From positions 1,379-65,378 of the forward strand of contig CAMKJU010000008.1 in assembly GCA_946413265.1 (NCBI GenBank): 64,000 nt of DNA. Reading direction: 5' to 3'. This DNA is from an uncultured Lentisphaerota bacterium. Its GTDB lineage: Bacteria > Verrucomicrobiota > Kiritimatiellia > RFP12 > UBA1067. Below, piece after piece: positions 14,034 to 15,224 of this stretch (its first letter is position 1; each line of letters opens with the position of its first letter). The position numbers and the translations under genes are program-made. The notes below the pieces were generated by a model. The model was not told the origin of the DNA. It saw only the letters and a list, made by a program, of their open reading frames with translations, and did not search any database.

Positions 14034-15224
14034 ATGAAACTCGTTGAATTTGTTCCGCCGACGCCGCATCCGCTGTGGGAGCTTTGTCCGCAGATGGGGA
14101 TTACGGACGTCATCGTGAAGGTGAATCCTGAGCTGACAGGTCTGCCAGATCCTTGGAAATTCGAAACGCTCGCGTCTATCGTCTCGCGTCTCAAGTCCGC
14201 CGGGCTCAAGGTTGTGGGACTTGAAGGCGACCCGTTCGACATGTCTCCGATCAAGGAGTTTGGGGAACGGGGAATGGGAAATGGGGAACGGGAAGAGGCG
14301 CTGGCGCATTATTGCGAGCTTCTGGAGTCGATGGGGCGGCTAGGAATCAAGCTTCTGTGCTACAACTTCATGGTCGGAAAGGGCTGGTCGCGCACCGGCG
14401 TACGAGAAGGTCGTGGCGGAGCAAAAGCAACCTACTTCTCCTTAGATGATTTTAACCACAAAGATAGCAAAGAGCGCAAAGAGATATTGTCCACAAATGA
14501 CAATTGCCACAATTGTTCACAAATCCCAAATGCCGATTCTACACGTTCTACATGTTCTACACGGCTAAATGATACTGGCAATCCTGTCAAAGAAAACCTC
14601 ATCCTTACCCACGAACAGGTGTGGGCGAACTACGAATACTTCATTAAGGCCGTGATGCCGACTGCGGAAAAGTTGGGTATACGCATGGGACTCCATCCCG
14701 ACGATCCGTGCCTCGATTCGCTCGGCGGTTACGCGCGCATATTCGGATCAATCGAGGCATACGACCGCGCATACTCCATTTACCCCTCGCCGTCCAACGC
14801 CGTCACCTTCTGCCAGGCCAATTTCAAGTTAATGCTCACAAATGACAATTGCCACACAAGTACAAGTTCTACATGTTCTACACGGCTAAATGACCCTACT
14901 AAGGTGCTCGCCGATGCGGCGCGGCATTTCGGGAAGCGCATCGCCTTCATCCACATACGAGACGTTGAAGGCGACAAGACCGACTTCACGGAGCTTTTCC
15001 ACGATCAGGGAGATGTTGACCAGTTTGCGCTCATGCGCGTATACCGCGAACTGGGGCTAGACGTACCCGTTCGTGGTGACCATGTGCCCGAGATGGCATA
15101 CGACCGTGTGCTTACGCCTGAAGGCACTCCCGGCTACTTCACCCTCGGCCGTCTCTTCGCGAATGGATACTTGAAGGCGCTGTGCGTCCTGTCCTCGCCG
15201 ATATCATCGACGAGCGGCCACTAG
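14034..15224 (+). CDS. uxuA: Mannonate dehydratase (UxuA) carrying three in-frame insertions
   Basis: Blocks LCYNFM, HPDDPC, IHIRDV and TPGYFTLGRLF align to E. coli UxuA. A GERGMGNGER microsatellite insertion and two AT-rich in-frame insertions (TNDNCH...STCSTRLND) are present. Confidence 0.75.
   Translation: MKLVEFVPPTPHPLWELCPQMGITDVIVKVNPELTGLPDPWKFETLASIVSRLKSAGLKVVGLEGDPFDMSPIKEFGERGMGNGEREEALAHYCELLESMGRLGIKLLCYNFMVGKGWSRTGVREGRGGAKATYFSLDDFNHKDSKERKEILSTNDNCHNCSQIPNADSTRSTCSTRLNDTGNPVKENLILTHEQVWANYEYFIKAVMPTAEKLGIRMGLHPDDPCLDSLGGYARIFGSIEAYDRAYSIYPSPSNAVTFCQANFKLMLTNDNCHTSTSSTCSTRLNDPTKVLADAARHFGKRIAFIHIRDVEGDKTDFTELFHDQGDVDQFALMRVYRELGLDVPVRGDHVPEMAYDRVLTPEGTPGYFTLGRLFANGYLKALCVLSSPISSTSGH

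What the first reader, a model, noticed from the sequence alone, without database searches (positions are those of the whole stretch)
14492..14893. Two AT-rich in-frame insertions inside the conserved uxuA gene
Alignment to E. coli UxuA shows two extra segments (14492..14572 and 14837..14893) that share the ends cacaaatgacaattgccaca … gttctacatgttctacacggctaaatga. They are markedly AT-rich in a GC-rich gene, are internally repetitive (ttctaca), stay in frame and add TNDNCH…STCSTRLND peptides. They look like copies of a small insertion element that is tolerated in surface loops, or an unusual in-frame intervening sequence.
Basis: partly seen in the sequence, partly recalled or inferred. Interest (0 to 1): 0.55.

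Follow-up and report, generated by a model that had tools for sequence, protein, structure and literature searches.

The report
In-frame mobile repeats inside uxuA

Summary
The 20-mer and 28-mer each occur exactly twice in the window, both inside a UxuA-family gene (14034-15224), with none expected by chance. The segments are 39-42% GC against 57% for the rest of the gene.

They are not native loops. Some orthologues have an empty site C (ATG-GGTGTCGAC-CTC), and one 96%-identical orthologue lacks 111 nt at site B. The same ~40-nt core (ATTGTTCACAAATGRCAATTGCCACAATTGTTCACAAATC, "T") recurs in about 85 places in Kiritimatiellae MAGs, many from the rumen, and in other metagenome contigs. It lies in frame in UxaC, an SDR, a PFL-like enzyme, an ARMT1-like phosphatase, a GH38/GH28 protein and others. 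It also lies in intergenic DNA, sometimes as a 110-nt near-perfect hairpin.

The full coding unit is modular, about 150 nt (H-T-S-N). Only one of its six frames is open, and that frame encodes a very hydrophilic peptide. In an AlphaFold model that matches solved UxuA structures, the two inserts are the only internal low-confidence segments and sit in beta-to-alpha loops.

Best reading: an RPE/MITE-like non-autonomous repeat, kept only where it stays in frame in permissive loops. The mobilising enzyme is unknown. The T core is more conserved than the flanking coding DNA, and that is unexplained.

The parts
14034..15224 (+). Host gene: UxuA-family (mannonate dehydratase-like) CDS, 396 aa
   Evidence: ORF list. 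Pfam PF03786 at 1.9e-51. PDB hits 3BAN, 1TZ9, 4EAC. AlphaFold model matches UxuA structures with TM 0.71-0.82 normalised by target. 44 columns are invariant across Kiritimatiellae and Firmicutes UxuA, including HPDDP.
14445..14485 (+). Site B, module H: GATGATTTTAAC + CACAAAGAN-type 9-mers (peptide DDFNHKDSKERKEI)
   Evidence: Coordinates. The same module directly precedes T in uxuA site A of L001/L009, in UxaC (L020, L026) and in L078.
14486..14537 (+). Site B, module T (core): two direct 13-mers ATTGTYCACAAAT (14486, 14512) around the 7-bp palindrome ACAATTG-CCA-CAATTGT (14500-14516); peptide LSTNDNCHNCSQIPNAD
   Evidence: The 40-nt core is nearly invariant in 27 coding and 21 intergenic unique-flank copies.
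14538..14573 (+). Site B, module S: three 9-mers TCTACAYGK + CTAAATGAT (peptide STRSTCSTRLND)
   Evidence: TRF period 9, 3.0 copies. Recurs after T in many host genes.
14574..14594 (+). Site B, module N remnant: ACTGGCAATCCTGTCAAAGAA (TGNPVKE); the right boundary lies in the CAAAGA repeat
   Evidence: L038 (96% aa identity) lacks the 111 nt bounded by direct CAAAGA repeats. The AATCCTGTC 9-mer arrays (NPVNPV) appear in other copies.
14835..14866 (+). Site C, truncated T module (T with a 15-nt internal deletion); peptide LTNDNCHTSTS
   Evidence: Full T at the same site in L031, L045, L051, L056. Empty site ATG|GGTGTCGAC|CTC in L004, L039, L040, L103.
14867..14906 (+). Site C, S module (two 9-mers + CTAAATGAC) and 12-nt tail CCTACTAAGGTG; peptide STCSTRLNDPTKV
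   Evidence: Together with 14835-14866, 72 nt replace the 9 nt found at empty sites (net +63).
14262..14294 (+). Site A: in-frame heptamer array (GGGGAAY)4.4 = GERGMGNGE, a third hypervariable insertion hot spot
   Evidence: TRF and repeat family D12. Orthologues carry 21-nt-multiple expansions, a full H-T-S-N element, or unrelated sequence here.
15217..15237 (+). Heptamer array GCCACTA spanning the stop codon. The C-terminal tail CVLSSPISSTSGH differs from other orthologues
   Evidence: TRF; alignment A1 C-termini. Similar TAGTSRY heptamers flank intergenic T palindromes in MAG RGIG6720.
52720..52772 (+). The same GGGGAAY heptamer array, in frame (GERGTGNGERGTGNGER), in a second window gene: a SAM-dependent methyltransferase, 52415-53335

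Best explanation
The two segments are copies of a dispersed, modular, non-coding DNA repeat family of Kiritimatiellae (many of the MAGs come from the rumen). One copy is full and one is internally deleted. The family is a MITE/REP-like element analogous to the Rickettsia palindromic elements.

Anatomy. The invariant part is a ~40-52-nt 'T' core made of two direct 13-mers around a 7-bp palindrome. In intergenic DNA, T occurs alone or paired with an inverted copy as a ~110-nt hairpin. In genes it occurs as a ~150-nt composite: H (CACAAAGAN 9-mers), T, S (TCTACAYGT 9-mers + CTAAATGAT) and N (AATCCTGTC 9-mers).

How it gets there and stays (inferred). The element spreads at the DNA level, by a trans-acting transposase or recombinase or by recombination between copies. 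Copies that land in coding DNA survive only under three conditions:
- they lie in the one reading frame without stop codons;
- they add a multiple of 3 nt;
- they fall in a permissive loop.
The open frame encodes a very hydrophilic, probably disordered peptide, so the enzyme tolerates it as an extruded beta-alpha loop.

Afterwards (inferred from comparisons). Copies decay or change by slippage between their own short repeats, seen as in-frame 9-, 15- and 111-nt differences, and by exchange of the module on the 3' side of T.
For: Shown:
- Exact duplicate ends with 0 expected by chance.
- AT-rich composition and low GC3 in a GC-rich gene.
- Empty site C in four orthologues and filled/empty sister proteins P0014/P0046.
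- A 111-nt presence/absence at site B in a 96%-identical orthologue, bounded by CAAAGA repeats.
- A third full copy at site A in L001 and L009.
- 31 genuine genome hits in 12 Kiritimatiellae MAGs. Twelve are in one MAG, eleven of them within about 110 nt of a locus end, as multi-copy repeats tend to be.
- 53 genuine metagenome loci.
- In-frame copies inside the Pfam domains of UxaC, ARMT1-like and PFL-like proteins. Other in-frame copies lie ahead of the matched part of an SDR domain, inside a GH38/GH28 multidomain protein, in a large protein without Pfam match, and in the C-terminal tail of an SNF2 helicase.
- Reciprocal empty sites in L008 versus L017.
- Intergenic copies right after stop codons or before start codons, next to ordinary housekeeping genes.
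- The intergenic palindrome folds at -34.7 kcal/mol, z = -8.4.
- The T core is equally invariant in coding and intergenic copies with no excess change at third codon positions, so the constraint is on DNA, not protein.
- Only 1 of 6 frames of the composite is open; its peptide has mean hydropathy -1.36.
- AlphaFold (pLDDT 74.6, pTM 0.78) gives pLDDT below 50 only at residues 154-187 and 272-284 plus the termini. The inserts sit between E131-136 and H193-214, and between E255-260 and H288-302. The model matches solved UxuA structures.

From the literature: in-frame MITE/RPE insertions are an established phenomenon (PMC10969869).
Against: - No target-site duplication could be defined. At site C the element replaces 9 nt rather than simply interrupting them.
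- No transposase with matching ends was found. The IS200-like Y1 transposases seen in related loci are flanked by GC-rich REPs, not by T.
- The uxuA copies are half elements without inverted ends and without significant secondary structure.
- T is 96-100% identical between orthologous sites whose flanks are only 63-94% identical. A decaying selfish element would not be expected to do this.
- At least five orthologous sites keep T constant while the 3' partner differs. This suggests function, homogenisation or a recombination hot spot.
- Mobility is inferred from presence/absence comparisons and was not observed.
- Translation of the inserts is assumed, not shown.
- All copies were found with one exact 20-mer, so conservation inside that 20-mer is partly ascertainment.
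Confidence: 0.8

Rival explanations
1. T is primarily a functional sequence motif, such as a binding site for a DNA- or RNA-binding protein, or an mRNA-level signal. It is maintained by selection wherever it lies. The coding copies are then not junk but conserved anchors at which variable repeat arrays are generated or exchanged.
For: - The T core is nearly invariant in 48 unique-flank copies.
- T is 96-100% identical at orthologous sites whose flanks are 63-94% identical.
- At uxuA site C and at the GH38-like, PFL-like, ARMT1-like and L079/L088 sites, T is the constant left part while the right module differs between species.
- T is co-oriented with flanking genes in non-coding contexts too (13:3 upstream, 16:3 downstream) and often lies just upstream of an RBS and ATG.
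Against: - Empty sites and T-less derivatives (L038, P0013, P0030, P0046) show the host genes do without it.
- T occupies unrelated positions in unrelated proteins.
- Conservation could reflect recent spread or gene conversion.
- The strand caller used for orientation is crude. It miscalled one apparently minus-strand gene in the window. The exact-20-mer search also biases conservation estimates.
- No binding protein or RNA family is known.
Confidence: 0.25
2. The segments are native, lineage-specific low-complexity loops of the Kiritimatiellae UxuA. Their resemblance to each other results from an intragenic duplication or gene conversion, not from an element that exists elsewhere.
For: - Within the 64-kb window, and in 20 kb around the gene in L001, the motif occurs only inside uxuA.
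- Close relatives (93-98% identity) share both segments.
- No orthologue has a completely clean site B.
Against: - The same 40-nt DNA occurs in at least eight unrelated genes and in intergenic DNA across 12 MAGs and 53 metagenome contigs.
- Empty site C in four orthologues.
- DNA-level rather than codon-level conservation.
Confidence: 0.03
3. They are intervening sequences removed after transcription or translation: a mini-intein, an intron, or translational bypass.
For: They interrupt a conserved enzyme close to its catalytic face. The T peptide contains Cys and His residues.
Against: - The inserts are about 24 and 52 aa, far below intein size, with no Cys/Ser at the N-terminal junction and no His-Asn at the C-terminal junction.
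- No Rfam family matches on either strand at E<=1.
- No significant fold.
- The inserts are open in frame with lengths divisible by three, which excision would not require.
- In-frame deletion variants persist.
Confidence: 0.03
4. The inserts are an assembly artefact: reads of a repeat wrongly joined into uxuA.
For: The repeat breaks assemblies elsewhere: eleven of the twelve copies in MAG RGIG6720 lie within about 110 nt of a locus end.
Against: Identical in-frame junctions appear in independent assemblies from different projects: the window, L001, L002, L003, L009, L038 and L053. The variants differ by clean multiples of 3 nt.
Confidence: 0.01

Closest known systems
Rickettsia palindromic elements (RPEs; Ogata et al. 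2000, as summarised in PMC10969869)
   Same: Short (~100-150 nt) dispersed repeats. They are found in intergenic DNA and inserted in frame in many unrelated metabolic genes. Each family encodes a conserved peptide in a reading frame without stops. The insertions are judged compatible with the protein fold. All of this matches what is seen here.
   Different: - Different phylum and lifestyle: a GC-rich gut Kiritimatiellae against an AT-rich obligate intracellular alpha-proteobacterium.
- No sequence relationship was tested or is expected.
- The coding copies here are mostly half elements (T without its inverted partner) joined to 9-mer tandem arrays.
- The T core is more conserved than the host gene, with a variable 3' partner. 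As far as I know this is not described for RPEs.
Bacterial MITEs with intragenic in-frame copies (ERIC, BOX, QMITE1, Anabaena MITEs; Correia elements)
   Same: Non-autonomous, hairpin-forming, 50-500 nt, high copy number, occasionally fused in frame to host ORFs. The intergenic T...T' form has ~50-nt inverted arms.
   Different: No target-site duplication and no parent IS with matching inverted repeats were found. In-frame coding copies make up about half of all unique copies recovered. This is far more than is usual for MITEs, but it may be inflated by the sampling.
REP / REPIN / BIME elements mobilised by RAYT (IS200-like Y1) transposases; GTAG-tagged REPs (PMC3733652, seen only as title and abstract)
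   Same: - The same genomes are full of GC-rich GTAG-tagged palindromes (window 22960-23120, 24060-24205).
- IS200-like Y1 transposases flanked by such REPs occur in related loci, even inside reading frames.
- The reverse complement of module S is a run of GTAG-containing 9-mers (CGTGTAGAA).
- No target-site duplication and a strand bias would both fit single-strand HUH transposition (inference).
   Different: T is AT-rich, about 40-52 nt, and built from direct 13-mers. It has no GTAG/CGTC tag at its end. The Y1 transposases seen are flanked by GC-rich REPs, not by T. No transposase was found in the window.
Cyanobacterial STRR heptanucleotide tandem repeats (from my own knowledge, not checked here)
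   Same: The site A insert and the methyltransferase insert are tandem heptamers (GGGGAAY). Other heptamer arrays (GCCACTA, TCCTTTG) lie in or next to genes.
   Different: Different sequences and phylum. Here the arrays sit in frame in coding DNA, in multiples of three units.

Membership tests
RPE-like in-frame selfish repeat (functional class) | The same short repeat is present in many unrelated protein-coding genes, in frame, and also in intergenic DNA | tested here: met
   In frame in UxuA, UxaC, SDR, ARMT1-like, PFL-like, GH38/GH28 protein, SNF2 helicase tail, a large unknown protein and the L079/L088 protein, plus at least 21 intergenic unique copies.
RPE-like in-frame selfish repeat (functional class) | Presence/absence polymorphism at orthologous sites (insertion rather than ancestral sequence) | tested here: met
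   Empty site C in L004, L039, L040 and L103. Sister proteins P0014 (filled) and P0046 (empty). L038 lacks 111 nt at site B. L008 and L017 show reciprocal empty sites.
RPE-like in-frame selfish repeat (functional class) | Inserted peptide maps to the protein surface or loops and leaves the fold intact | tested here: met
   AlphaFold model with pTM 0.78: inserts are the only internal segments with pLDDT below 50 and lie between a strand and the next helix. The fold matches 3BAN, 1TZ9 and 4EAC. This is a prediction only; activity was not tested.
Rickettsia RPE families 1-10 (sequence families) | Sequence similarity to RPE consensus sequences; occurrence in Rickettsiales | not tested
   No RPE sequences were compared. 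The hosts are Kiritimatiellae, so membership is not claimed, only analogy.
MITE | Terminal inverted repeats | tested here: inconclusive
   Met for the intergenic T...T' form (hairpin, z = -8.4). Not met for the two window copies, which are half elements (z about 0).
MITE | Target-site duplication flanking the element | tested here: inconclusive
   Site C replaces 9 nt. Site B presence/absence is bounded by a 6-nt CAAAGA repeat that could be a duplication or deletion microhomology. TA...TA flanks some intergenic palindromes but not others, by my direct reading of the sequence contexts printed.
MITE | Related autonomous IS with the same ends | tested here: not met
   No T...transposase...T' arrangement in about 100 loci. 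Neighbours of the palindromic copies are housekeeping genes. Whole genomes were not available.
REP/REPIN (RAYT-mobilised) | 20-40-nt GC-rich palindrome with a GTAG or CGTC tag, associated with a RAYT gene | tested here: not met
   T is AT-rich, has no terminal GTAG, and none of the Y1 transposases found is flanked by T. Classical GTAG REPs co-occur in the same genomes but form a different family.
Intein | At least ~130 aa, Cys/Ser/Thr at the N-terminal splice junction, His-Asn plus a Cys/Ser/Thr nucleophile at the C-terminal junction | tested here: not met
   Inserts are about 24 and 52 aa. Junctions are M|LTND...PTKV|L and L|DDFN...VKEN|L.
Group I/II intron or other described RNA element | Match to a curated RNA covariance model, or a significant fold | tested here: not met
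   No Rfam match at E<=1 on either strand of 13900-15400. Fold z-scores are -0.03 and +0.78.

The most novel reading that the evidence does not exclude
The T core is not just a passive hitch-hiker. It is a conserved, strand-specific anchor, a recombination or insertion hot spot or a protein/RNA recognition site. Other short repeat modules (9-mer arrays, hairpin modules, GC-rich REPs) are repeatedly inserted or exchanged at its 3' side. This would give rumen Kiritimatiellae a built-in way of diversifying loops of otherwise highly conserved enzymes, and a previously undescribed class of modular 'cassette-like' intragenic repeats.
Probability: 0.25. Interest if true: 0.8.

Novelty: new variant of a known kind. 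Interest (0 to 1): 0.62.

Why it matters
In-frame 'selfish DNA' inside conserved enzymes has been documented at high frequency essentially only for the Rickettsia palindromic elements. Here is a second, unrelated case, in a free-living, GC-rich gut lineage. The system has many natural filled, empty and variant alleles of the same enzymes.

That makes three questions directly testable with metagenomic data and simple biochemistry:
- How proteins tolerate random loop insertions.
- How such repeats move.
- Whether they create new protein segments.

There are also practical consequences:
- These repeats break MAG assemblies.
- They inflate apparent protein-length diversity: UxuA runs from 327 to 513 aa among the listed homologues, all at least 60% identical to the window protein.
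- They could mislead annotation and orthology pipelines for rumen Kiritimatiellae.

Tried and rejected
1. Element peptide against the 5.8-billion-protein index: only 2 candidates and no useful hit. The composition probably defeats the word index.
2. Window peptide (53 aa) against 1.84 billion cluster representatives with phmmer: 0 hits. Representatives of host clusters probably lack the insert, or the composition correction removes it.
3. First AlphaFold run with 34 close orthologues: pLDDT 40, unusable. It was rescued by adding Firmicutes UxuA sequences.
4. Search for an autonomous partner, none linked to T:
 - tblastn with the two IS200-like transposases against the window: none.
 - Search for T...T' pairs 0.4-4 kb apart: none carrying a transposase.
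 - Pfam scan of genes next to the palindromic copies: housekeeping genes only.
5. Small-ORF idea. In RGIG6720 an SD + ATG precedes T in the TNDNCH frame. I rejected this because related copies shift the frame by 1 nt, and other intergenic copies have in-frame stops 4 codons upstream (my direct reading of the contexts printed; open-frame lengths).
6. Other collections: viral contigs, phage records and plasmid records hold no copy.
7. DNA for P0014, the filled sister of the empty P0046, could not be fetched. The cleanest filled/empty junction therefore remains at protein level.
8. The codon-position GC strand caller miscalled one apparently minus-strand window gene. The orientation statistics for non-coding copies are therefore only indicative.
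Full report
**Observation**

The region lies in one ORF, 14034-15224 (+), 396 aa. It is a UxuA-family protein: Pfam PF03786 at 1.9e-51, and sequence hits to the solved mannonate dehydratases 3BAN, 1TZ9 and 4EAC.

- The 28-mer occurs exactly at 14545 and 14866.
- Even with 3 mismatches allowed there is nothing else in the 64 kb, and none is expected in shuffles.
- The two segments are 81 and 57 nt, at 39.5% and 38.6% GC. The rest of the gene is 57% GC. GC3 is 33% in the inserts against 62% for the whole gene.

**Are they insertions?**

The closest homologues are all Kiritimatiellae mannonate dehydratases. 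They are highly conserved outside a few spots, yet range from 327 to 513 aa. An alignment of 34 of them shows four hypervariable hot spots:
- site A, after PIKEFG;
- site B, after ATYFSL;
- site C, after ANFKLM;
- the C-terminal tail.

Recognisable peptide modules recur at different sites in different orthologues: DFSHKDHKEHKD, LFTNDNCHNCSQITN, STRSTCSTRLN, NPVNPV, GERGTGNGE, and a VAVATGSFGV...NLQDSKTPSSESN module.

DNA alignments give the details.
- Site C is empty in L004, L039, L040 and L103: ATG|GGTGTCGAC|CTCGCC. In the window, 72 nt (14835-14906) replace those 9 nt.
- At site B, L038 is 96% identical in protein but lacks exactly 111 nt, bounded by direct CAAAGA repeats.
- L001 and L009 carry a third, full-length copy at site A.
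- In a tree built on insert-free columns, the sister proteins P0014 and P0046 differ by a filled versus an empty site C.
- The window's site C copy is the full element minus 15 nt (ATTGTTCACAAATCN, between CACAA repeats) and minus one 9-mer. Full T cores at the same site are seen in L031, L045, L051 and L056.

**The element elsewhere**

A scan of one genome per GTDB species with CACAAATGRCRATTGCCACA gave 33 loci.
- 31 are in 12 Kiritimatiellae MAGs, some labelled 'Verrucomicrobia' or 'Lentisphaerae'. Several record names point to the rumen (sheep rumen, yak rumen, RUG series).
- 12 are in MAG RGIG6720, and 11 of these lie within about 110 nt of a locus end.
- 2 are chance hits.

A metagenome scan gave 60 loci, 53 of them genuine. 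Viral contigs, phage records and plasmid records have none.

After removing copies with identical flanks there are 55-58 unique copies. About half lie in long sense-strand open frames and about 21 are clearly intergenic.

In-frame hosts:
- inside the matched Pfam domain: UxaC (two sites), an ARMT1-like phosphatase and a PFL-like glycyl-radical enzyme;
- an SDR, where the copy lies ahead of the matched part of the domain;
- a GH38/GH28 multidomain protein;
- a large protein with no Pfam match, where L008 and L017 show reciprocal empty sites and L017 carries a whole T...T' palindrome in frame;
- an SNF2 helicase, in the C-terminal tail;
- the L079/L088 protein.

Intergenic copies sit directly after stop codons or just upstream of an RBS and ATG. 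They lie next to ordinary genes: a sugar transferase, a symporter, a kinase, a carboxypeptidase and McrBC. Some are paired with an inverted copy, giving a 110-nt near-perfect hairpin (-34.7 kcal/mol, z = -8.4). The two uxuA copies have no significant fold.

**Anatomy**

The invariant part is the T core, ATTGTTCACAAATGRCAATTGCCACAATTGTTCACAAATC. It consists of two direct 13-mers around the palindrome ACAATTG-CCA-CAATTGT. In the window it spans 14486-14537.

In coding DNA T is usually preceded by H (TTTAGCC + CACAAAGAN 9-mers). It is followed by S (three TCTACAYGT 9-mers + CTAAATGAT) and N (AATCCTGTC 9-mers).

Of the six frames of a 153-nt consensus composite, only the sense frame is open. It encodes DFSHKDHKEHKDGLFTNDNCHNCSQITNTNSTRSTCSTRLNDTGNPVNPVK, with mean hydropathy -1.36. 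The only nearly open antisense frame has one stop and is hydrophobic. This explains why every coding copy is read as TNDNCH, and largely explains why 27-29 coding copies are sense and at most 2 could be antisense.

The T core varies no more in intergenic than in coding copies. It shows no excess variation at third codon positions (0.045 against 0.074 at positions 1 and 2). So the constraint, or the youth of the copies, is at DNA level and not at protein level. One caveat: 20 of the positions were fixed by the search pattern.

**Structure**

A first AlphaFold run on close orthologues failed (pLDDT 40). Adding 41 Firmicutes UxuA sequences gave pLDDT 74.6 and pTM 0.78. The best Foldseek matches are the E. 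coli, S. suis and E. faecalis mannonate dehydratases, with TM normalised by target of 0.71-0.82.

- The only internal segments with pLDDT below 50 are residues 154-187 and 272-284, which are the T-S parts of the two inserts.
- Site B (residues 137-188) lies between strand 131-136 and helix 193-214.
- Site C (268-291) lies between strand 255-260 (followed by a short helix) and helix 288-302.
- Site A (77-85) lies in the coil before helix 85-102.

All three are beta-to-alpha loops, on the catalytic face of a TIM-type barrel (inference from the fold). Forty-four columns, including HPDDP, stay invariant between Kiritimatiellae and Firmicutes. The enzyme is therefore probably functional (inference).

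**Unexplained features**

1. Between orthologous insertion sites, T is 96-100% identical while 300-nt coding flanks are 63-94% identical.
2. At five orthologous sites, T is the constant left part while the right-hand partner differs between species. The sites are uxuA site C and the GH38-like, PFL-like, ARMT1-like and L079/L088 sites. The partners are S, a hairpin-forming V module, GTAG-tagged GC-rich REPs, or other 9-mer arrays such as TCTCTGCGY and CTCCGTGYC, usually ending in CTAAAYGAT.
3. Non-coding T copies also tend to be co-oriented with neighbouring genes (13:3 and 16:3). The strand caller is crude, so this is only indicative.

These features could mean recent spread plus gene conversion. 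They could mean a sequence-specific function of T. Or T could be a hot spot at which other repeats insert.

I found no target-site duplication and no partner transposase. The IS200-like Y1 transposases present in related loci, sometimes inside reading frames, are flanked by GC-rich REPs and not by T. The window has none.

**Comparison with known systems**

The closest analogue is the Rickettsia palindromic elements. These are ~150-nt repeats found in frame in many unrelated genes, each encoding a conserved peptide compatible with the host fold (review PMC10969869). Intragenic ERIC, BOX, QMITE and Anabaena MITEs are weaker analogues.

Membership in any named sequence family is not claimed:
- MITE criteria are only partly met. 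Inverted repeats exist in the intergenic form. No target-site duplication and no parent IS were found.
- REP/REPIN criteria are not met for T.
- Intein and intron criteria are clearly not met.

No paper in the searchable library links Kiritimatiellae to such repeats.

**Verdict**

It is a new, modular variant of the 'selfish repeat in protein-coding genes' phenomenon in a new phylum. Its mobilisation mechanism is open, and its core is unexpectedly conserved.

Noticed in passing
window 14262-14294 and 52720-52772: Tandem GGGGAAY heptamers lie in frame in two unrelated genes: uxuA site A (GERGMGNGE) and a SAM-dependent methyltransferase at 52415-53335 (GERGTGNGERGTGNGER). UxuA orthologues carry expansions in steps of 21 nt.
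   Followed up: partly
window 15217-15237: A GCCACTA heptamer array spans the uxuA stop codon. The C-terminal tail (CVLSSPISSTSGH) differs from that of other orthologues. Related TAGTSRY heptamers flank intergenic T palindromes in MAG RGIG6720.
   Followed up: partly
window 22960-23120, 24060-24205, 25884-26037; also 1554-1585, 13285-13316, 35331-35362: Clusters of GC-rich palindromes, each starting with GGTAGGG (e.g. GGTAGGGCGGTCGCCCCGCGACCGCC). They look like classical GTAG-tagged REP/BIME arrays in intergenic spacers.
   Followed up: partly
window 19771-19827, 23130-23249, 20923-21062: 22-nt tandem arrays: CCCATGTAGGGAGCGCGTTCAC, TTCCCCGTGTAGGGAGAACGCA and AGCTACCCCCCCAGTCGCCCAC. The third lies within the span of ORF 20608-21486 (an HTH_36 protein) and may be another in-frame repeat with a 66-nt super-period. 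This was not checked.
   Followed up: no
window ~17100-44000: A mosaic region with low-GC stretches (44-54% in 26-38 kb and 42-44 kb, against about 62% elsewhere). It holds an AbiEii toxin, two HNH_2 endonucleases, an AAA_14/DUF4143 ATPase, a NUDIX protein and many repeat families (D1, D3, D5-D9). It is probably a defence or mobile island.
   Followed up: partly
window 36441-36535, 37633-37727, 42204-42298, 43641-43735: A 95-nt repeat family (GTGTTGCCAATG...TGTTGCCAGTTTCCAATTGGGGATTGAAATTGGC) lies upstream of genes. A related module follows the T core in frame in L008 and L059.
   Followed up: partly
L026 (RC 5196-7499) and L023 (RC 2754-5210): IS200-like Y1 transposase ORFs (Pfam Y1_Tnp), flanked by GC-rich REP-like sequence, lie inside a long open frame of a uxaC gene and of a PFL-like gene. 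In L026 this is the same hot spot where L020 carries an H-T-S element.
   Followed up: partly
L017 4757-4925: A complete T...T' palindrome with a GC-rich GTAG REP nested inside it is read through in frame in an 845-codon open frame. The orthologue L008 has an empty site there.
   Followed up: partly
window 1604-1643: An intergenic heptamer array, TCCTTTG x4.7, lies just upstream of the gene starting near 1663. Its reverse complement, CAAAGGA, resembles the CAAAGA units of module H.
   Followed up: no
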